Source of the DNA: an uncultured Candidatus Saccharibacteria bacterium
GTDB lineage: Bacteria > Patescibacteriota > Saccharimonadia > Saccharimonadales > Saccharimonadaceae
Direction: 5' to 3'
DNA length: 64,000 bases
NCBI GenBank assembly: GCA_938046115.1
Contig: CALIXX010000002.1
Location: 4,029-68,028 of the forward strand
In this document: positions 25,435-32,642 of the stretch, one piece after another
Layout of the letters: each line of letters opens with the position of its first letter
Numbering within the stretch: the first letter of the stretch is position 1
Notes under the pieces: generated by a model
The model's database searches: none
Told to the model about the DNA's origin: nothing
What the model saw: only the letters and a program-made list of their open reading frames with translations
Translations under genes and position numbers: made by a program

Positions 25435-27615
25435 CTACACGGCTTTTTCTTGCTCTCGCTGCCAACGGTGACGGACATCAATAATCGACATCTGAGCCAA
25501 TATGTCAGTAGGTATGCTCTGCATATAGGTAATGACGCGTGCTGCATATTCAGGGTGTGGGTAGGTAGCAGCACGCTTTGGGCGGCGCCCTGCCTTGAGC
25601 CCATCGAGTACACCGCGCATCCGCTTCCAAAATGAATAATAATCGAGCTTGGCCTTGACTTGCCAGTGCTGAGCATCTTCTATCACAAAACCTTCGATTG
25701 GTACACCATCATACAGATAGTCGAGCCCCTGCACCTGCTCATACCAGGTCGCAAACTCCTCCCATGTCTGGAGCGTCGCCGCAAGCCGCTTGGTTTCCAT
25801 GCCAAATTCCGTTGCAAATCGCTCACGCTCAGCTTGGTCAACTGCGGCAAACTTCGCTTGGCGGTGCACTATGTCGAGCAAAACAATCCGATCCTGTGCA
25901 TACTCAATGATGTGCGGGTCCTCCGTTGGAAGCATCACCTCACAAACCAAACATACATTGTGCTCTGCAAGATACTGACGAATTTCATCGACATGCTTAC
26001 CATAGCGCTGCAAAAATAAGCGACGAAACCATCCAGCAAAATCGCTCTCTGTCGTTGTTTTCGATGCAAAGACGAGGTCACCTAGTGTCGCATCATAGCC
26101 TACCAGGCCAAGATAGCCATTCTCCTTCACCCAAGCACGCACTGGAAAAACAAGTTGATCTTTGAGCGCAGCAAATTCAGTTTCTCGTCGCTCACCAATA
26201 TTGAAGAATTTATCATAGGCACGAATCACAATCTCATTTGTGAGCGTATTCATAAATAGTCCACGAGCTCGCACTGTTTGCGCTGTCCATTTTTTGTCAT
26301 AAAACACCTTTGGTTTAAAGTGAAATGAGCTAATATTGCCCGGCAGTGACCGCTCGCTAATCAGCTTATTAGTGCGCAGGCTGTGGATGAGTGGTGCGTT
26401 TTCTGGATGGAGGAGGCCTTCAGCCGATTGGTTGCTTATCTCAACGACCGACCAGCCCTTCTCGGCAAGCTGAGCAACCCGTAGTGTGCCACCAAACTCC
26501 ACTTTGCCCTCGAGATTAAAGCACCGCTGGTTATACTGCGCTGGATAATTCTGAGCGTTGCGATGGCCATGCACTTGATAGACATTATCAGAGGTGTGAG
26601 CAACAAAAGCATCGTCGATAGCACCAACCTGCTCATAGCGCCCCACACCACGAATATACTGCTGGCTGGCAAGCAGCAGAGGATTCTCTGGTAGATTGCT
26701 CACCCCTGCGTGGCTTACAAATACACGCTTGTTATGCCATGTGTAATAGAGGCAGTCCTGCATGGAGTTCATCAAACGACTGACAGCACGCTTGTCTATG
26801 TTGGCACGCTCTAGCTGCGCTCGAGTTCGGCCATTAAACTCTCGCGCTTTTATCGGCTGGTGAGTCAGCCATTGCCAAATATAACCATCATGGTTGCCCT
26901 CAATGAACGTCACATTCGGCCTGCCGACAAAATTATCACACACATACTGCAACACTTCTGCATTCTCTGTGCCGCGATCAAGTAGGTCTCCCGTAAAGAC
27001 ATAATAATCATGCTCGGTATAGGGATGCTGCTCAAAATATTCACGCAGTGGCGTATAGCATCCTTGGATATCACCAATGTGATGAATATGCTTATACTGG
27101 CTCAAATTAATCGGTTTCTGGTACGATGCGATAAGCTCTTTTACTGCCGCTGGTTGTATGACAGTGTATTGTTTTGGTATGGCACATGTGGAGAGACGAG
27201 CGTGCATTTTCTCGAGAACTACATCATCGACTATCTTATGTGGTGCACGCTGACGGTTGCGCTCTAGACAGACCGCAAGCGGTACATCCGCAAAATCTAT
27301 AACGTACAGCTTATAGCGATACTTTTGTGCAAGCTGTGCATACTGCTGAAAGTACGAGCTCGTTGTATGTGTTGCATCAACCACAATGAGCTCACCACGA
27401 GCCATACGCATATCAAGCAACTCGTGAAGCTGCTGCCACACCCGTCGATCATCCTGATATGGCATAACGATGCGCCCTGCATCATTCATCACTGGGCTAC
27501 TATACGCTAAACGTAGAGTATCGGGAGATAGTGTATATGGGCCAAGCCCAGCAGATTGCAAAAAGGTACTTTTGCCAGATCCAGGAATTCCACGTGTAAT
27601 AAAAAGATGTCGCAT
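25435..27615 (-). CDS. pnkp: Polynucleotide kinase-phosphatase-ligase (bacterial Pnkp-type RNA repair enzyme)
   Basis: The P-loop kinase domain has GIPGSGKST. The calcineurin-type phosphoesterase has GDIQGC, GDLLDRG, GNHD and VHGHRN. The nucleotidyltransferase domain has motif I VKENGY, motif IV EGFVIED and motif V VKAK. Start at MRHLFITRG. Confidence 0.8.
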   Translation of the reverse strand: MRHLFITRGIPGSGKSTFLQSAGLGPYTLSPDTLRLAYSSPVMNDAGRIVMPYQDDRRVWQQLHELLDMRMARGELIVVDATHTTSSYFQQYAQLAQKYRYKLYVIDFADVPLAVCLERNRQRAPHKIVDDVVLEKMHARLSTCAIPKQYTVIQPAAVKELIASYQKPINLSQYKHIHHIGDIQGCYTPLREYFEQHPYTEHDYYVFTGDLLDRGTENAEVLQYVCDNFVGRPNVTFIEGNHDGYIWQWLTHQPIKAREFNGRTRAQLERANIDKRAVSRLMNSMQDCLYYTWHNKRVFVSHAGVSNLPENPLLLASQQYIRGVGRYEQVGAIDDAFVAHTSDNVYQVHGHRNAQNYPAQYNQRCFNLEGKVEFGGTLRVAQLAEKGWSVVEISNQSAEGLLHPENAPLIHSLRTNKLISERSLPGNISSFHFKPKVFYDKKWTAQTVRARGLFMNTLTNEIVIRAYDKFFNIGERRETEFAALKDQLVFPVRAWVKENGYLGLVGYDATLGDLVFASKTTTESDFAGWFRRLFLQRYGKHVDEIRQYLAEHNVCLVCEVMLPTEDPHIIEYAQDRIVLLDIVHRQAKFAAVDQAERERFATEFGMETKRLAATLQTWEEFATWYEQVQGLDYLYDGVPIEGFVIEDAQHWQVKAKLDYYSFWKRMRGVLDGLKAGRRPKRAATYPHPEYAARVITYMQSIPTDILAQMSIIDVRHRWQREQEKAV

Positions 27616-27780
27616 ATTTTCTCCTTTCTGTAGCGTTGTTTTCAAGATTTCGCTTAACTATATCTAACTCAAGTAATTTACTCTTGTTTTTATATTATAT
27701 CATCATCTTCTGGAAACGGCTTCTACCTCATTAGAGTATGTAGCAATTTATCTTAGTTTATGAATGATATTTATATATAA

Positions 27781-27819: not shown

Positions 27820-27902
27820 CATAAAATACTATTTATTCTATTATATTGTCCCTACTGGCTGTGGTACTTCTTATACCATTTTGTTCTTATCTTGGTTCGC
27901 GC

Positions 27903-27908
27903 TACAAT
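27903..27908 (+). promoter_or_regulatory. -10 box TACAAT 6 nt upstream of the deacetylase ATG
   Basis: GCTACAAT-ATAGCT-ATG. TTGTTC lies 16 nt upstream as a possible -35. Confidence 0.45.
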
Positions 27909-27914
27909 ATAGCT

Positions 27915-29369
27915 ATGTTCCATAAGGTGGAAAAAATAGATGCTCGAAATCATTCAGGTGTCGAAAATAATACAACACCTGCAAAACCTCGCAGCTTTTT
28001 TTATACATGGCTCTGTCTTATTATTACTAGTCTATTAATCTGCTCACTTTGGTATGGCCAACAATCACAAAAATCATCACACATCACACATATACCACCA
28101 TCAACAATACACACTTACACACTATCTTCTCGTGGTGCTGTTCGCTCACGCATCATCAAGCATCAATCGGCATCGCACCAAACAATCGTTACCTATCCAC
28201 AAACAGGTATTGCCAACATAGACAAAACGGTTGCCACGATCATCGACAATACTATTCCATCTCAACAAACAGCTTCAACTAATGTAGCAGCTCGAAGCAA
28301 CACCATTACCTATCGCATTATTCACCAAGACGACACGACGATTTCTCTCGCTGTGTTTATCCGTACTACTACACCTCATGCTCTGCCAACCAACACGGTT
28401 CACTGCTGGACATTCGATAAAATGAGTGGCCAGCCAATTACATCGTCTGCCCTCGTTGATACATCAATCGCAGGGATCAATGAGATTGTTATTGCTCTAC
28501 GCAGACAAGTGCAGCAGCGCTACCCGCATGTAGAGCCAGTAAAAGTAGCGGGAGTCATTACTCCAGAATCTATCACGAACTTTTTAGTACACGACCGAAA
28601 AACAATTGGCTTTCTCTTCGATAAACGCTCGCTTGGTATTGGTGTAGATGGAATCATTAGCCTGAAATTGCCAATCAAGCAGCTCAGCCATTTTGTCCAA
28701 AACCCAACCACCAAGAAGCTTTTTGATATTCCACCGTCAGCATTATCATCAACAACCGACTGCGTGCGTTATCGCTGTATTGCACTCACCTTCGACGATG
28801 GGCCTGGGTTATACACGCAAACACTACTCGAGTATCTTGATCGCTATCATGCTAAGGCAACCTTCTTTGTGGTGGGGCGAAATGTTGCACCATACAGTAT
28901 CGCGCTCCAGCAAGCAGTTCAACGCAAACACCAAGTAGGCAACCACACGTGGAATCATCCACTCCTTCCTAAGCGCGACGAAGCTGTCATCCGCCAAGAG
29001 ATTGAGAGTACAAACAGTGCCGTTGCTGCAGCTACTGGCGTGACACCAACAATGGTCCGTCCACCATATGGTGGCATGAATGACAAGGTGCGTGCGCAGC
29101 TCCAGCAGCTTACTATGCCAGCCATTATGTGGTCAATCGATACACGTGATTGGGCCGATCACGATGCAGCAATTGTCTGCAGCCGTGCCGTTGCCAATGC
29201 CGCACCTGGTGCGATTATTCTCATGCACGATATCCACAAAACCAGCGTCGATGCTGTGCCGTGTATCCTCGATGCATTACAAAAGCAAGGGTACAGATTT
29301 GTCACGGTCAAGAACCTATTTGGCCATCCGCTCAGCGCTGGCGAGTCATATTCTCAATATAAGCAGTAG
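27915..29369 (+). CDS. Membrane-anchored polysaccharide/peptidoglycan deacetylase (NodB homology domain)
   Basis: NodB motifs TFDDGP, HTWNHP, RPPYG and LMHD sit in the C-terminal half. An N-terminal TM helix is present. Start moved from the tracked TTG to MFHKVEK. Confidence 0.85.
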   Translation: MFHKVEKIDARNHSGVENNTTPAKPRSFFYTWLCLIITSLLICSLWYGQQSQKSSHITHIPPSTIHTYTLSSRGAVRSRIIKHQSASHQTIVTYPQTGIANIDKTVATIIDNTIPSQQTASTNVAARSNTITYRIIHQDDTTISLAVFIRTTTPHALPTNTVHCWTFDKMSGQPITSSALVDTSIAGINEIVIALRRQVQQRYPHVEPVKVAGVITPESITNFLVHDRKTIGFLFDKRSLGIGVDGIISLKLPIKQLSHFVQNPTTKKLFDIPPSALSSTTDCVRYRCIALTFDDGPGLYTQTLLEYLDRYHAKATFFVVGRNVAPYSIALQQAVQRKHQVGNHTWNHPLLPKRDEAVIRQEIESTNSAVAAATGVTPTMVRPPYGGMNDKVRAQLQQLTMPAIMWSIDTRDWADHDAAIVCSRAVANAAPGAIILMHDIHKTSVDAVPCILDALQKQGYRFVTVKNLFGHPLSAGESYSQYKQ

Positions 29370-29414
29370 GGTCTTTATAAACCGCTCATGCTACCATTCC
29401 GCTGTGTAATCCTC

Positions 29415-29420: not shown

Positions 29421-29426
29421 AATGCT

Positions 29427-31628
29427 ATGCAACAACCATTTCTTCCTAACAACACCTCTCTCTCTTCAAGTCCACTCGATCTGGAGCAGCGGCTTGAGGT
29501 CCTGCAGCTTCCTGAGGCGAAACTGCTAATCGGCGAACATATCAAAGCCTCACCAGAGTCACAAGGGGCAGACGAAGCAGCCAATCAGCGCGCAGAATAT
29601 CAACGAACTGTCTGCTCGCTCAACGTTATGGACTACCTATACTATGGCGGCGATGAAAATTATCACAAACTGACCGCTACCCAGAACGACGCCAATCGCC
29701 TCACGCGTGAAGAATTTGAAGAATTTCATCAGTGGGTTGCGAGCAACTTGCCTGGCGAGCATAGCGCCAATGTAATGCGCTACATTATGCTTATTCATGA
29801 TCTAGGCAAGAACCAAACGCTCGCGAGTGCCGTTATGGGAGAGGATGCCACTGATTCGGTCGATCATGACGAAGTGCTGCGCCGTTTACTCAGGTCAGAT
29901 TACGCTGCAAAGCGCACAGAGTTATTACCGACATTCAGCCAATTAAGCGAAGTAGACCAAACGATCATACGCGATGTCATCAATACAGAACTCAATCTTG
30001 GCCAGTTTATCCAAGCCGAAGCACCGGCGGCAACGCTGGCAAGCTTTGCGGACAGTACTGAGCCAGTGCGCTCGCTCTATATCATGCATACGCTATTTGA
30101 TATTGCTGGTGCGGCGGGACATGTTAATGCTGAGAGTTCTCTACTCCTCACTTCTCCTATGTACAACCAAATGGCAGCAGCCTGCGACGTCTTAACCGAC
30201 AGCACCCTCCCGACCGACAACGCACGCTACACTCACTACCTCGCTCGGCGAGCACAGCGCTTTGGCCTCGATAACGATGCTATTGAGCAGCTCATCAACA
30301 GCCAAGCATATACTCACACTGTGCGCCTTGCTTGTATGCTACGCTACGATTCGCCAGAAGAGTATCAGCAACTGACCAATGCGCTAGATACGCTACCTGG
30401 CCCTGTACAAGCTATTCTCGCTCAAGAGCTCAGCAATGATGGTATTCATCAGCGTGCGACTCTGCCTTACTACGGCCCAGCCTTGCTGAAGGGGCTTGAG
30501 AAACATCATAGCCTCGGCACGGCGCTCACTTACTTTGCGCATGTTTTGCAAGAGGCACACATTGCCGACAAAGCAGCGCGCAAAGCAGGCGAGACAGGTA
30601 TCGTCACGGCAGACCTCAGCACTATTGCCCAAGCCGCCAACCAAGACATACTTGATCCACACCACGCTGAGCTGCGCTTTCATCACAGTGGTGAGACACT
30701 TGTGCCAGAATATCAGGACACACCTGAGCTCGCTATCGATTCACTCCCAGCGTTTGACTCTGAGAAGCTACGCGGCAAACGGATCATCTACCTTGGGATG
30801 GGTGGTGGCTCGGATGGTATCCAGGCTGCTATGCTAAGCAAGCTTCATCAGCAGCACCATGCCGTGCAGCCTACAGCTATTGTGTCGGTGCGCAACTTCG
30901 CTGCCGATAGCAACAAACAGCTTGCTCATACTGGCCGACAGATTGGTGACGCACTCGCAGAGATTACGAAGGAAACAACCAAAGTTGGTGACTGGCGCTT
31001 CCTCGAGGATATTATTGCTAAGGACGAGACAATCGCACCAGTTTATCTGCTTAATTCAATCGAGCCGGAGCAGATTACTCACGACCTGCAGATTCTCATC
31101 CGCGAGACGGGAGCTGATGCAATTTGTGGCATCGACACCGGTGGTGATGTACTCTACCATGCCAATACCGCCATCGACCCAACAACCTCATCACCGGATC
31201 AAGATTATGCTGTACTCACTGCTCTGCATATGATCAACGCCGCAGCAGAGGCAGATGGCACACCACTCAATGTCTTTACTGCTATTGTTGCACCTGGCGT
31301 GGATACACCTCCATATGCCAATGAGATACTTACTCGCAGCAGCGCCCAGCGCTATTCTCTTCACCCAGACGATACCACCACGATTACTCAAACCTACGCT
31401 GCATGGCGCATGGACGGCTCTGCTAGCGAAGAAGGGCTTTATGGTAAAACACCACTGGCGTGGATTGCTGCGCTGACAGGCAAGTACGGCTTGCAGCCAC
31501 TCGCTCTCCCACGAGCTAACGCAACTTCAGCTCATAACCCATGGCGTATCTTTATGAATATCCGCCCTTCGACTGCTCGCGTGGTAATGATGCAGGCTGA
31601 GCAGTTATACCAAGCTGTAAATCATTGA
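29427..31628 (+). CDS. Uncharacterised 733-aa fusion protein: N-terminal HD-like domain plus C-terminal DUF1152-like domain
   Basis: The N-half has an HD-type signature RYIMLIHDLGKN ... VDHDEV. The C-half has IIYLGMGGGSDG and ICGIDTGGDVLY, which resemble the GGGGD / DxGGD motifs I recall for archaeal DUF1152. Assignment is from memory only. Confidence 0.5.
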   Translation: MQQPFLPNNTSLSSSPLDLEQRLEVLQLPEAKLLIGEHIKASPESQGADEAANQRAEYQRTVCSLNVMDYLYYGGDENYHKLTATQNDANRLTREEFEEFHQWVASNLPGEHSANVMRYIMLIHDLGKNQTLASAVMGEDATDSVDHDEVLRRLLRSDYAAKRTELLPTFSQLSEVDQTIIRDVINTELNLGQFIQAEAPAATLASFADSTEPVRSLYIMHTLFDIAGAAGHVNAESSLLLTSPMYNQMAAACDVLTDSTLPTDNARYTHYLARRAQRFGLDNDAIEQLINSQAYTHTVRLACMLRYDSPEEYQQLTNALDTLPGPVQAILAQELSNDGIHQRATLPYYGPALLKGLEKHHSLGTALTYFAHVLQEAHIADKAARKAGETGIVTADLSTIAQAANQDILDPHHAELRFHHSGETLVPEYQDTPELAIDSLPAFDSEKLRGKRIIYLGMGGGSDGIQAAMLSKLHQQHHAVQPTAIVSVRNFAADSNKQLAHTGRQIGDALAEITKETTKVGDWRFLEDIIAKDETIAPVYLLNSIEPEQITHDLQILIRETGADAICGIDTGGDVLYHANTAIDPTTSSPDQDYAVLTALHMINAAAEADGTPLNVFTAIVAPGVDTPPYANEILTRSSAQRYSLHPDDTTTITQTYAAWRMDGSASEEGLYGKTPLAWIAALTGKYGLQPLALPRANATSAHNPWRIFMNIRPSTARVVMMQAEQLYQAVNH

Positions 31629-31663
31629 TTAAATTAATCAGTAATAGAAGGAGTTCTCTTCAT

Positions 31664-32443
31664 ATGAAATTAACATTCATGACATATAATATCTACAATG
31701 GTGCCGAGACAACGATCGATGACGTTATTGCAGTTATCAACGAAGTAAAGCCAGATATCCTGACGCTTAACGAAGCAAATGGCTTCGAGAACGACACAAG
31801 AAAACGCCTTGCATACGTCTCAGAACAGACCGCTATGCCCTATACTCACCTTGCGCTCTGCGGCGATGGGTCGTGGTACCATACAGCGTTGCTATCAAAA
31901 TATCCTATCCTGGATGCAACATTGCTCTACCCGTGTAGTCGATCACTCTTAGTAAGCCGCATTCAAGTCGATAATCATGTTTTCTCCATTGGTAGCCTTC
32001 ATCTCTCACCGCGATGCGAAGCTGACCGGCTACAAGAGGTGCACCGGCTTATTAACCATATTGGTGAGAATAGCACTCATACTGCTGTTATGGGTGATTG
32101 CAATTCACTCTCGTTTTATGATACATATCCGCCTGATATGGTAGATTCTTTCGATGCAAACTTGACGCGCAAATTTACTCGTGATGGCACAATTGTTCAT
32201 GATGTCACTCGTTTTATGGCACAGGCGGGCCTTGTCGATACAGCAGCTGCTTTGCAACAACACGCAACCTCGACGGCTCCAACACCACTGCCACCACACC
32301 CTGATCACCCAACCAGCCGGCTTGACTATATCTTTGTCTCGAAGGATCTGCAGCCTGCATTAACCTCATACAATGTTGTTAAAACACCACTATCAGACCG
32401 GGCGTCGGATCACTACCCAGTTGTCGTTGAGCTTGCATTATAG
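31664..32443 (+). CDS. Endonuclease/exonuclease/phosphatase (EEP) family phosphodiesterase
   Basis: MTYNIYNG, LTLNEAN, GDCNS and the C-terminal SDHYPVVVEL. SD AAGGAG lies upstream of MKLTFMTYN. Confidence 0.8.
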   Translation: MKLTFMTYNIYNGAETTIDDVIAVINEVKPDILTLNEANGFENDTRKRLAYVSEQTAMPYTHLALCGDGSWYHTALLSKYPILDATLLYPCSRSLLVSRIQVDNHVFSIGSLHLSPRCEADRLQEVHRLINHIGENSTHTAVMGDCNSLSFYDTYPPDMVDSFDANLTRKFTRDGTIVHDVTRFMAQAGLVDTAAALQQHATSTAPTPLPPHPDHPTSRLDYIFVSKDLQPALTSYNVVKTPLSDRASDHYPVVVELAL

Positions 32444-32523
32444 GTGCAAGCTCTCTCGTCCGCTGCTAGAATTTCTTTCGTCTCCCGGTATTTGAATTTT
32501 GCGACCCAAGGGCAATATAAGCT

Positions 32524-32555
32524 TTAATAAAATAAGACCGATTTTCATCGGTCTT
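32524..32555 (-). terminator. Rho-independent terminator downstream of tRNA-Asn
   Basis: Hairpin AAGACCGAT-loop-ATCGGTCTT. On the minus strand it is followed by ATTTTATT. Confidence 0.55.
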
Positions 32556-32567
32556 TATCATGCATCG

Positions 32568-32642
32568 TGGCTCCGGAGACTGGGCTCGAACCAGCGACCT
32601 AATCGTTAACAGCGACCCGCTCTACCACTGAGCTACTCCGGA
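32568..32642 (-). tRNA. tRNA-Asn (anticodon GUU), CCA encoded
   Basis: The minus strand reads TCCGGAG TA GCTC AGTGGTA GAGC G GGTCG CTGTTAA CGATT AGGTC GCTGG TTCGAGC CCAGT CTCCGGA G CCA. Confidence 0.9.

What the first reader, a model, noticed from the sequence alone, without database searches (positions are those of the whole stretch)
29427..32443. Uncharacterised gene pair: a 733-aa HD-like + DUF1152-like fusion protein followed by an EEP-family phosphodiesterase
The large ORF has an N-terminal half with an HD-type metal-site signature (IMLIHDLGKN ... VDHDEV ... HTLFDIAGAAGH). Its C-terminal half contains LGMGGGSDG and GIDTGGDVLY.

These motifs resemble the glycine-rich GGGGD/DxGGD motifs of DUF1152. 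As far as I recall, DUF1152 is an archaeal family with no assigned function, and I know of no described fusion of it to an HD domain.

The next gene starts 36 nt downstream with its own SD and encodes an EEP-fold enzyme (nuclease / inositol- or lipid-phosphatase superfamily). Two predicted phosphoester hydrolases plus an unknown glycine-loop domain suggest a small pathway acting on a phosphorylated metabolite, nucleotide second messenger or lipid head group.

The pair lies in an accessory-looking stretch next to tRNA-Asn. This is my top candidate for a genuinely undescribed function in the window.
Basis: partly seen in the sequence, partly recalled or inferred. Interest (0 to 1): 0.7.

Follow-up and report, generated by a model that had tools for sequence, protein, structure and literature searches.

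The report
Unknown two-part enzyme, unrelated neighbour gene
The large gene encodes a well-conserved two-domain enzyme of a widespread family that nobody has characterised (probably acting on nucleotide-like molecules), while the phosphodiesterase gene next to it is an optional passenger rather than a partner.

Summary
Both genes are real, intact and under purifying selection. The window comes from an oral Saccharibacterium (Nanosynbacter).

The 733-aa protein is Pfam DUF6829 (E 1.5e-42) fused to DUF1152 (E 1.4e-10; fold match to a giant-virus DUF1152, E 1e-6). AlphaFold models it confidently (pLDDT 92). No solved structure matches either half by sequence or fold. The "HD" signature exists only as a motif, and its His is Asn in most relatives.

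The fusion is not new as an architecture. It recurs in Patescibacteria, Bdellovibrionota, Rickettsiales, Actinobacteria and Clostridia. It is sometimes split into two adjacent genes. The N-module family has more than 1000 clusters, including protist NACHT/ankyrin giants.

The EEP gene is not a partner. It lies beside the fusion only in Nanosynbacter. It is cleanly deleted in 14 of 51 strains and never accompanies distant homologues.

No neighbour is conserved. The company either module occasionally keeps is NUDIX (2×), YfbR-type HD nucleotidase, P-loop kinases, DSP phosphatase, nucleoside hydrolase, TIR and PARG. This points to a nucleotide or ribosyl-phosphate substrate. That is my best, unproven, mechanism.

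A (CT)n tract just after the start codon varies between strains (4, 5 or 6 units) and switches the reading frame.

The parts
29427..31628 (+). DUF6829-DUF1152 fusion gene. It encodes 733 aa from ATG 29427; an in-frame ATG at 29388 would give 746 aa.
   Evidence: ORF list. Pfam. 52 homologues including full-length ones at 30-62% identity. dN/dS 0.13. AF2 pLDDT 92, pTM 0.89.
29456..29465 (+). (CT)5 tract in codons 10-13. Its length decides which start codon, if any, is in frame.
   Evidence: It is the only dinucleotide repeat of >=5 units in the window, though about 1.1 are expected by chance. Tract length is 5 in most of the ~50 strains; a few lineages have a different N-terminus with no tract. 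Six strains have n=6 and are frameshifted: their first in-frame ATG is Met68, and the rest of the ORF is intact. L098 has n=4, which puts ATG 29422 in frame.
29499..30302 (+). N-module 1 (residues 25-292). It is all-alpha and carries the HD-like motifs: E57, R60, [H/N]124-D125-x-G-K128, D146-H147-D148, Q196-x-E198, D225-IAG-x-x-G231-H.
   Evidence: Invariant columns in A1, A3 and A9. An exhaustive profile search finds 1095 clusters. The module is absent from the 'short forms'.
30303..30731 (+). N-module 2 (residues 293-435). It consists of helices plus beta-hairpins and always accompanies the DUF1152 domain, even in short forms.
   Evidence: DSSP of the model. Short forms P0061, P0066 and P0067 match only profile positions ~240-410 of DUF6829 plus the C-domain.
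30732..31625 (+). C-domain (residues 436-733): a DUF1152-type alpha/beta domain. Invariant motifs sit at or just past the C-terminal ends of strands: G457-x-GGGSD463, S487-x-R489, D570-TGG-D574, P590-D-x-D593, A622-P-G-x-D626. Further invariant residues are D663 and K674-T675.
   Evidence: Pfam PF06626 E 1.4e-10. Foldseek BFVD hit to Hyperionvirus DUF1152, E 1.1e-6, TM 0.63. Motifs shared with classical stand-alone DUF1152. Strand positions.
31647..31653 (+). Shine-Dalgarno-like GAAGGAG, 10 nt before the EEP start codon.
   Evidence: Read directly from the sequence row of the window.
31664..32443 (+). EEP-family (Exo_endo_phos) gene, 259 aa. It is an optional accessory gene.
   Evidence: Pfam PF03372 E 4.7e-19. 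dN/dS 0.09 where present. Presence/absence polymorphism. Only generic 'EEP family protein' relatives at 24-29% identity.
31642..32347 (.). The segment missing in the short allele of the slot. The ~705-nt deletion leaves the last ~32 EEP codons.
   Evidence: Alignment A8. The slot is 222-233 nt in 14 loci and 925-940 nt in 36 loci plus the window.
32534..32555 (.). Hairpin (AAGACCGAT-loop-ATCGGTCTT) between EEP and the tRNA. It is terminator-like and conserved in both alleles.
32568..32642 (-). tRNA-Asn (GTT), which bounds the variable slot.
   Evidence: ARAGORN. Used as the anchor.

Best explanation
The 733-aa gene encodes a self-contained, cytoplasmic enzyme of the widespread but uncharacterised DUF6829-DUF1152 family. 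It has two catalytic modules.

Shown:
- Each module has its own invariant set of acidic, His, Lys and Gly-loop residues.
- Each module occurs alone elsewhere.
- The two are sometimes encoded as adjacent, overlapping genes.
- AlphaFold packs them into one compact body.
- In the C-domain, all invariant motifs lie at the C-terminal edge of the parallel sheet. A GxGGGSD loop follows strand 1, in the position of a classical phosphate-binding loop.

Inferred:
- The two modules catalyse consecutive, divalent-metal-dependent hydrolytic steps on one phosphorylated ribosyl or nucleotide-derived small molecule. Candidates are a nucleotide or an NAD/ADP-ribose derivative.
- The helical N-module acts as an HD-like phosphoesterase.
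- The DUF1152 module holds the remaining phosphate in its glycine loop and uses its Asp cluster (D463, D570, D574, D593, D626) for a second hydrolysis, of a glycosidic or anhydride bond.
- In Nanosynbacter it is a vertically inherited chromosomal gene, plausibly serving nucleotide salvage or clean-up in an organism that lives off its host's nucleotides. A slippery (CT)n tract can switch its expression.

The EEP gene downstream is an independent accessory gene. It sits in a variable slot next to tRNA-Asn and is merely co-transcribed with the fusion where present.
For: Family membership.

Autonomy of the modules:
- Among the best 150 N-module clusters, 67 are N-only, 59 are N+C, and about 24 are tandem-N giants.
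- Stand-alone and short C-forms exist.
- Split adjacent genes with 4-nt overlaps occur in L073, L077 and L078.

Compact model: pTM 0.89.

Nucleotide theme from independent contexts:
- A NUDIX gene overlaps the fusion start in L102.
- In L111 the order is NUDIX, then YfbR-type HD nucleotidase, then a short form that lacks N-module 1.
- A TIR gene overlaps the Streptomyces homologue.
- An IU-nucleoside-hydrolase protein sits directly downstream in two Bdellovibrionota contigs and is partly fused in L052.
- Zeta-toxin kinase fused to DUF6829.
- A small P-loop kinase lies upstream of P0053.
- DSP-PTPase of the PTP-NADK/SAK type fused to DUF6829.
- Microbial PARG sits next to a classical DUF1152.

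Not mobile, not defence-like:
- No PADLOC hit.
- No plasmid, phage or IMG/VR homologue.
- Some homologues sit among housekeeping genes.
- Synteny is conserved.

EEP is unlinked.
Against: - No neighbour family recurs. The largest count is 2 of 131 flanking proteins, and no neighbour cluster is shared across lineages. Each nucleotide-related association is seen once or twice, so the theme is anecdotal.
- I could not list all singleton families among the neighbours, so the theme may partly reflect what I looked for.
- HD homology is unproven. There is no Pfam HD hit on the window protein. The best Foldseek E is 0.8 with TM about 0.2. hhalign probability is below 1%. His124 is not conserved.
- No solved structure informs the chemistry of either domain.
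- The Perkinsus fusion to MIOX and SET and the phytase-like PTP hits would fit an inositol-phosphate substrate equally well.
- Catalysis itself is inferred from conservation only.
Confidence: 0.4

Rival explanations
1. The fusion and the EEP enzyme form a small pathway of two or three phosphoester hydrolases that acts on a phosphorylated metabolite, a second messenger or a lipid head group.
For: - The genes share a strand with a 35-nt gap, and no terminator was detected between them in the window.
- Both are under purifying selection.
- EEP includes inositol-polyphosphate phosphatases (established knowledge).
- DUF6829 is fused to MIOX in Perkinsus and to a PTP with phytase-like hits.
Against: - EEP is adjacent only in Nanosynbacter.
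- 14 of 51 strains carry a clean deletion of EEP while the fusion stays intact, and one strain has DUF4238 in its place.
- No EEP gene lies near about 45 distant homologues.
- OFF-frame fusion alleles show no association with EEP presence.
Confidence: 0.05
2. It is an effector delivered to, or acting on, the host or prey cell. It would be a hydrolase that epibionts, predators and intracellular bacteria use to degrade or remodel a host molecule, with contingency (phase-variable) expression.
For: - The phyletic pattern is rich in host-dependent lineages: Saccharibacteria and other Patescibacteria, Bdellovibrionota, Rickettsiales and gut Alphaproteobacteria.
- Bdellovibrionota homologues and their IUNH neighbour carry Sec-type signal peptides.
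- Tandem paralogues occur in L053 and L066.
- A frame-switching (CT)n tract lies at the 5' end.
- The N-module is the C-terminal module of protist NACHT/ankyrin giants.
Against: - The window protein has no signal peptide. Its first 24 residues are only disordered.
- The family is also present in free-living Streptomyces, Acidimicrobiales, Methylomirabilota and fungi.
- The gene is not on mobile elements.
- Some relatives sit in housekeeping neighbourhoods.
- This rival is not exclusive of a nucleotide substrate.
Confidence: 0.2
3. It is the effector of an anti-phage or conflict system that degrades a signalling or essential nucleotide when triggered.
For: - A TIR gene overlaps the Streptomyces homologue.
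- NACHT/TCAD9 architectures occur in eukaryotes.
- A Zeta-toxin fusion exists.
- DUF4238 occupies the neighbouring slot in L103.
Against: - There are no PADLOC hits.
- No sensor or partner is conserved.
- The family is absent from plasmids, phages and viral contigs.
- It is syntenic and near-universal in Nanosynbacter species genomes.
- There is no compositional island.
Confidence: 0.1
4. It acts on inositol phosphates or inositol-containing lipids or thiols, for example the phosphatidylinositol or mycothiol of the actinobacterial host, rather than on nucleotides.
For: - The HDxGK motif resembles that of MIOX, and Perkinsus proteins fuse three DUF6829 copies to a MIOX-like domain.
- The PTP fused in P0184 also hits PTPlike_phytase.
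- Saccharibacterial hosts are Actinobacteria (for the lifestyle).
Against: - The MIOX similarity covers only 12 residues.
- The His ligand is not conserved.
- Neighbours such as NUDIX, YfbR-type HD, IUNH, TIR and PARG are nucleotide or ribose enzymes.
- Most carriers (Bdellovibrionota, gut Alphaproteobacteria) do not have Actinobacteria as hosts or prey.
Confidence: 0.1

Closest known systems
Pfam DUF1152 (PF06626): stand-alone ~270-350-aa proteins of archaea, bacteria and giant viruses, function unknown
   Same: - The core motifs are the same: GxGGGSD after strand 1, DTGGD, D...L, APGxD, T675 and W706.
- Pfam hit E 1.4e-10.
- Fold match to Hyperionvirus DUF1152, E 1.1e-6, TM 0.63.
   Different: - The window domain belongs to a distinct subfamily with an extra C-terminal region (W-x-MDGS, YGKTP, NPW). 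The WxMDGS and NPW motifs are lacking in classical members.
- It is always preceded by the last third of DUF6829.
- Only residues 455-639 align to the Pfam model.
Pfam DUF6829 (PF20717): uncharacterised ~410-aa helical domain
   Same: Full-length match, E 1.5e-42. The family-wide invariant residues E57, D125, K128, H147, D225 and G231 are all present.
   Different: Saccharibacterial members have His at position 124 ('HD'), where most of the family has Asn ('ND'). About half of the family lacks the DUF1152 partner. Others carry kinase, phosphatase or NACHT/ankyrin partners.
HD-domain metal-dependent phosphohydrolases and oxygenases (PF01966 and relatives: YfbR, Cas3 HD, MIOX)
   Same: - It is an all-alpha domain with an HDxGK motif followed by further His/Asp motifs.
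- Eukaryotic DUF6829 copies reach 22.5 and 24.8 bits on Cas3_HD (cut-off 23.1) over the ~40-residue HDxGK motif region only.
- The weak Foldseek hits include PDEases, a dNTPase and RelA.
- A genuine YfbR-type HD gene sits immediately upstream of a short form that lacks this module.
   Different: - No HD-family model hits the window protein.
- No significant fold match: best E 0.8, TM about 0.2.
- hhalign probability is below 1%.
- The His of the HD doublet is not conserved in the family, and the usual upstream His ligand was not identified.
Endonuclease/exonuclease/phosphatase (EEP) superfamily (PF03372), for the downstream gene
   Same: Full-length Pfam match, E 4.7e-19. The translation contains sequence stretches that resemble canonical EEP catalytic motifs (N in YNIY, E in LNEA, H in SLHL, D/N in GDCN, SDH at the C-terminus); this reading rests on my own knowledge of the family.
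   Different: - No subfamily could be assigned. Exonuclease III models match only weakly and below their cut-offs.
- No PDB relative at E<=0.01.
- The nearest annotated relatives are generic EEP proteins at 24-29% identity.

Membership tests
Pfam DUF1152 (PF06626) | Profile match above the gathering score | tested here: met
   41.4 bits against a cut-off of 27, E 1.4e-10, residues 455-639.
Pfam DUF1152 (PF06626) | Shared fold with an annotated DUF1152 protein | tested here: met
   Foldseek against BFVD: Hyperionvirus DUF1152 protein, E 1.1e-6, probability 1.00, TM (target) 0.63, 306 columns.
Pfam DUF1152 (PF06626) | Conserved GGGSD and DTGGD loops shared with classical stand-alone members | tested here: met
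   These columns are invariant in alignment A6, which holds classical (P0127, P0128, P0130), split and fused forms.
Pfam DUF6829 (PF20717) | Profile match above the gathering score over most of the model | tested here: met
   146.2 bits against a cut-off of 27; profile positions 45-395 of 408.
HD-domain superfamily | Match to an HD-family profile (PF01966 or relatives) | tested here: not met
   No HD-family hit on the window protein at E<=1 or E<=5. Only eukaryotic paralogues touch Cas3_HD, at 22.5 and 24.8 bits, over about 40 residues.
HD-domain superfamily | Conserved H...HD...D metal-ligand pattern | tested here: inconclusive
   H124-D125 is present in the window protein, and D125, H147 and D225 are invariant. 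However, position 124 is Asn in most of the family, and no conserved upstream His was found.
HD-domain superfamily | HD/PDEase helical fold | tested here: inconclusive
   The N-domain model has pLDDT 93. Foldseek against PDB gives a best E of 0.8; the PDE, dNTPase and RelA hits have E>=1 and TM 0.11-0.25. hhalign against a YfbR-like HD and a MIOX domain gives probability below 1%.
EEP superfamily (downstream gene) | Profile match above the gathering score | tested here: met
   PF03372: 69.4 bits against a cut-off of 24.5, covering positions 1-225 of 225.
EEP superfamily (downstream gene) | Catalytic residues present | not tested
   Motifs that look like the canonical ones are visible in the translation, but no residue-level alignment to a characterised EEP enzyme was made.
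Conserved functional gene pair / operon (fusion + EEP) | Co-occurrence of the two genes across lineages | tested here: not met
   EEP is adjacent only in >90%-identical loci. It is deleted in 14 of 51 of them. It is absent near all distant homologues.
Known anti-phage defence systems (PADLOC-DB) | Match of either protein to a defence-system model | tested here: not met
   The fusion and its Streptomyces homologue have no hits. EEP has only a 0.043 chance-level hit.
Mobile-element cargo | Homologues on plasmids, phages or viral contigs | tested here: not met
   tblastn against plasmids and phages finds no match. The IMG/VR scan finds none.
Metal-dependent hydrolase acting on nucleotides (proposed working analogy) | Catalytic activity and substrate | not testable with these tools
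   Only indirect evidence is available: conservation and occasional genomic company.

The most novel reading that the evidence does not exclude
DUF6829-DUF1152 may be a new class of two-step enzyme built from two folds that have no solved relative. It would process a nucleotide- or ADP-ribose-derived molecule. Genome-reduced episymbionts and predators would use it as a core enzyme, with frame-switch (phase-variable) expression in oral Nanosynbacter. Its N-module would be reused, in triplicate, as the output end of NACHT/ankyrin immune-type giants in protists.
Probability: 0.3. Interest if true: 0.75.

Novelty: new member of a known kind. Interest (0 to 1): 0.5.

Why it matters
The N-module family alone has more than 1000 sequence clusters across bacteria, protists and fungi. 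DUF1152 extends to archaea and giant viruses. Neither has a structure, a paper or a function.

The gene is present in all the oral Saccharibacteria (Nanosynbacter) genomes that the scan returned. These organisms have minimal metabolism, so retained enzymes tend to matter.

A confident AlphaFold model with no PDB neighbour, clear candidate catalytic residues and a short list of plausible substrates make this a tractable target for enzymology. An assigned activity would annotate thousands of proteins. It might also explain what the triple DUF6829 output of protist NACHT proteins does.

The negative result matters too. The EEP gene should not be used as a guilt-by-association clue.

Tried and rejected
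1. Sequence searches of PDB with the single protein and with three profiles (A3, A4, A9) gave nothing better than E 0.07 on unrelated proteins. A weak PP-loop look-alike (NAD synthetase SGGxDS against GGGSD, E 0.6) was not pursued as homology.

2. Foldseek against PDB was run with the full-length and the N-domain models. No hit reached E<=1e-3. The many PAC2 and nucleoside-phosphorylase hits for the C-domain (E 0.15-0.7, RMSD >15 Å) are too weak to classify the fold.

3. A search for a conserved neighbour used all-against-all BLAST clustering and a pooled Pfam scan of 131 flanking proteins. Nothing recurred. jackhmmer with the TIR, NUDIX, PARG, IUNH, Zeta, HD and kinase neighbours found no further copies in the fetched loci.

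4. The defence-system idea was raised by the TIR neighbour. It was rejected as the main reading by PADLOC, by the absence from mobile elements and by synteny.

5. The metagenome scan aimed at classical DUF1152 contexts returned mostly the same Nanosynbacter loci.

6. The N- and C-terminal extensions of long homologues (P0159, P0160) have no PDB relatives.

7. The supplements of the Saccharibacteria Tn-seq paper (PMC10633639) do not mention either DUF.

8. LOG/SLOG, macro/PARG and IU-nucleoside-hydrolase relationships for the C-domain were considered from motif resemblance recalled from memory. They were not adopted. No LOG, SLOG or macro/PARG structure appeared among the listed Foldseek hits, and the only IU-nucleoside-hydrolase hit (YeiK, 3mkm) had E 0.59.


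Full report
**1. What is at the coordinates**

The plus strand carries an ORF at 29388/29427..31628, encoding 746 or 733 aa. After a 35-nt spacer containing GAAGGAG comes an ORF at 31664..32443, 259 aa from its ATG. tRNA-Asn lies at 32568-32642 on the minus strand.

Pfam assigns the large protein to DUF6829 (residues 56-403, E 1.5e-42) plus DUF1152 (residues 455-639, E 1.4e-10). It assigns the small protein to Exo_endo_phos (E 4.7e-19). NCBIfam adds nothing specific.

The closest relatives are 92-98% identical and come from oral "Candidatus Saccharibacteria / Nanosynbacter" genomes. The window is therefore from such an organism.

Against about 35 orthologues, median dN/dS is 0.13 for the large gene and 0.09 for the EEP gene. 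Both are real, selected genes.

**2. The large protein as a family**

Full-length homologues at 27-62% identity occur in many lineages:
- other Saccharimonadia; Komeili-, Paceibacterota and Woesebacteria
- Bdellovibrionota
- Rickettsiales and gut Alphaproteobacteria
- Clostridia
- Acidimicrobiales, Mycobacteriales and Streptomyces
- Methylomirabilota and Eremiobacterota

The fusion is thus a recurrent, catalogued architecture, not a novelty of this genome.

In L062, L073, L076, L077 and L078 the two halves are separate adjacent genes, several with 4-nt overlaps.

"Short forms" of 420-530 aa keep only the last third of DUF6829 plus the DUF1152 domain. Black-yeast and lichen fungal proteins of similar length also carry the DUF1152 domain, but no DUF6829 segment was detected in them.

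An exhaustive HMM search with residues 25-292 finds 1095 clusters at E<=1e-3. Among the best 150 clusters:
- 67 are DUF6829 alone
- 59 are DUF6829+DUF1152
- about 24 are 1000-4500-aa proteins with two to four tandem DUF6829 copies

The giants carry a TCAD9/APH kinase-like domain, NACHT and ankyrin repeats. The two whose source could be traced are eukaryotic: a EukProt transcript and *Perkinsus olseni*, where a MIOX-like domain and a SET domain are also fused.

**3. Structure**

AlphaFold2 with a 29-sequence alignment gives pLDDT 92 and pTM 0.89. The model has an all-alpha N-region (residues ~25-340), a helix/hairpin connector (to ~435) and an alpha/beta C-domain.

Foldseek against PDB returns no hit at E<=1e-3, either for the whole model or for a separate N-domain model of pLDDT 93. 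Profile searches of PDB sequences are also empty.

The only significant structural match is to a predicted giant-virus "DUF1152 domain-containing protein" (E 1.1e-6, TM 0.63). This confirms DUF1152 membership at fold level.

The invariant C-domain motifs sit at or just past the C-terminal ends of the predicted strands:
- G457xGGGSD463 after strand 452-457
- S487xR489 at the end of strand 481-489
- D570TGGD574 after strand 565-571
- A622PGxD626 after strand 615-621

This is the usual place for the active site of a doubly wound sheet. The glycine loop lies where phosphate-binding loops lie.

**4. Is the N-half an HD domain?**

The window protein has H124-D125-x-G-K128, D146-H147-D148 and D225. 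Across the family, position 124 is mostly Asn. The invariant set is E57, D125, K128, H147, D225 and G231.

- No HD-family Pfam model hits the window protein.
- Two eukaryotic paralogues reach 22.5 and 24.8 bits on Cas3_HD (cut-off 23.1), over about 40 residues around the motif only.
- Weak Foldseek hits include PDEases, a dNTPase and RelA, at E>=1 and TM 0.11-0.25.
- hhalign against a YfbR-like HD and a MIOX domain gives probability below 1%.

I rate "HD-like" as a motif-level lead, neither shown nor excluded.

**5. The EEP gene is not a partner**

tblastn finds the EEP gene downstream only in Nanosynbacter loci. The distance from the fusion stop codon to tRNA-Asn is bimodal:
- 925-940 nt in 36 loci plus the window
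- 222-233 nt in 14 loci

The short allele is a clean ~705-nt deletion that leaves the last ~32 EEP codons. Most carriers share the same boundaries. One strain carries a DUF4238 gene in the slot instead.

None of the ~45 more distant homologues has an EEP neighbour, and no other neighbour family recurs. All-against-all clustering found none, and the largest count in a pooled Pfam scan was 2 of 131 flanking proteins.

The big gene itself sits in conserved synteny. At 62% identity the polysaccharide deacetylase upstream is kept, together with the 588-aa protein, the LexA-like protein, the 432-aa membrane protein and the sugar transferase downstream. At 45% identity part of this is still kept. GC content is unremarkable.

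The "accessory" character therefore belongs to the tRNA-adjacent slot, not to the fusion.

**6. Clues to function**

Nothing is conserved next to the gene. The occasional tight neighbours and alternative fusion partners of either module nonetheless share a theme.

| Context | Association |
|---|---|
| L102 | NUDIX gene overlapping the fusion start; SAM methyltransferase after it |
| L111 | NUDIX, then YfbR-type HD 5'-nucleotidase, then a short form lacking N-module 1; a separate DUF6829 gene convergent |
| Streptomyces homologue | TIR gene overlapping it |
| Two Bdellovibrionota contigs | Secreted IU-nucleoside-hydrolase protein directly downstream; part of it fused in L052 |
| L066 | Zeta-toxin kinase fused to DUF6829 |
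| P0053 | Small P-loop kinase upstream |
| P0184 | DSP-PTPase of the PTP-NADK/"Swiss-army-knife" type fused to DUF6829 |
| Classical DUF1152 | Microbial PARG beside it |

Each association is seen once or twice, so this is suggestive rather than statistical.

Evidence against a defence or mobile role: no PADLOC hit; no homologue on plasmids, phages or IMG/VR contigs; and some relatives embedded among ribosomal genes.

**7. Most likely mechanism (confidence about 0.4)**

I propose a self-contained, two-step, metal-dependent hydrolase acting on a phosphorylated ribosyl or nucleotide-derived molecule. The N-module would act as an HD-like phosphoesterase. The DUF1152 module would bind the remaining phosphate in its glycine loop and use its Asp cluster for a second cleavage.

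Shown: domain autonomy, conservation, the compact model and motif placement. Inferred: catalysis, metal dependence, substrate class and the order of the steps.

Rivals:
- a host- or prey-directed effector (0.2), which is not exclusive of the main model
- a conflict-system effector (0.1)
- an inositol-phosphate substrate (0.1)

**8. An unplanned observation**

Codons 10-13 of the gene are a (CT)5 tract at 29456-29465. Among about 50 Nanosynbacter loci the tract has 5 units in most.

It has 6 units in six loci. These are frameshifted with stop codons upstream, and the first in-frame ATG is Met68, so the invariant E57 and R60 are lost. The remaining 666 codons are intact.

It has 4 units in L098. 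There the overlapping ATG at 29422 (ATGCTATGCAAC) comes into frame. The 666-aa proteins are these shifted alleles.

The tract is the only dinucleotide repeat of >=5 units in the window, but one such repeat is expected by chance. The argument therefore rests on the length polymorphism, not on the tract's existence. It looks like a slipped-strand expression switch. Within-population variation was not tested.

**9. Verdict**

The "gene pair/pathway" reading is refuted, "HD domain" is unproven, and the fusion is a normal member of a catalogued, uncharacterised family.

I file it as a new member of a known (DUF-level) kind. There is a real chance (~0.3) that the family represents new enzymology. 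Interest is 0.5.

Noticed in passing
window 29456-29465 (and 29422/29427 overlapping ATGs): A (CT)n tract lies just after the start codon of the fusion gene. Its length varies between Nanosynbacter strains (4, 5 or 6 units) and switches which ATG, if any, is in frame. Six strains are in the OFF frame with an otherwise intact ORF. This may be phase variation.
   Followed up: partly
window 31629-32567; loci L003-L038, L085-L107: The slot between the fusion gene and tRNA-Asn is a variable site. It holds the EEP gene in 36 loci plus the window. In 14 loci a ~705-nt deletion leaves the last ~32 EEP codons. In L103 a DUF4238 gene sits there. L024 appears to carry an EEP frameshift.
   Followed up: yes
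window 25435-27645 (-): This 736-aa protein combines a P-loop kinase (AAA_33), a calcineurin-like phosphoesterase and a T4-type RNA ligase domain. That is a Pnkp-like RNA repair enzyme architecture, in a Saccharibacterium.
   Followed up: no
P0134, P0138, P0140, P0144, P0145, P0146; P0276/P0280 Perkinsus olseni: Proteins of 1600-4500 aa carry TCAD9/APH-like kinase, NACHT and ankyrin repeats followed by three tandem DUF6829 copies; the two whose source was traced are eukaryotic. In Perkinsus the three copies are fused to a MIOX-like domain and a SET domain. This architecture appears to be undescribed.
   Followed up: partly
L111:3628-8120: A cluster of NUDIX, YfbR-like HD nucleotidase and short-form DUF1152 (without N-module 1), with a convergent 595-aa DUF6829 gene. 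This is the most informative single neighbourhood for the family.
   Followed up: partly
L079:4995-6813: A classical stand-alone DUF1152 gene follows a microbial-type PARG gene and a 56-aa ORF in apparent operon arrangement. A DUF4291 gene lies further downstream.
   Followed up: partly
L053:4259-10723 and the P0052 contig: In Bdellovibrionota the family is expanded: a DUF6829-only paralogue plus the fusion. It is followed by an ~808-aa IU-nucleoside-hydrolase-like protein. The P0052 fusion protein and the L053 hydrolase both start with Sec-type signal peptides. A fragment of the hydrolase protein is fused to the N-terminus of the L052 homologue.
   Followed up: partly
P0044, P0046 (C-terminal ~250 aa) and L102:5848-6519: Two soil Saccharimonadales homologues carry a C-terminal extension. 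From its sequence motifs it looks to me like a Rossmann/SAM-methyltransferase-type domain. In L102 a separate SAM methyltransferase gene follows the fusion by 16 nt.
   Followed up: no
window 27846-29369 (+): The upstream gene is a 507-aa polysaccharide deacetylase. It has a ~300-aa N-terminal region without any Pfam match and a predicted membrane anchor. It is syntenic with the fusion gene in two Saccharibacteria genera.
   Followed up: no
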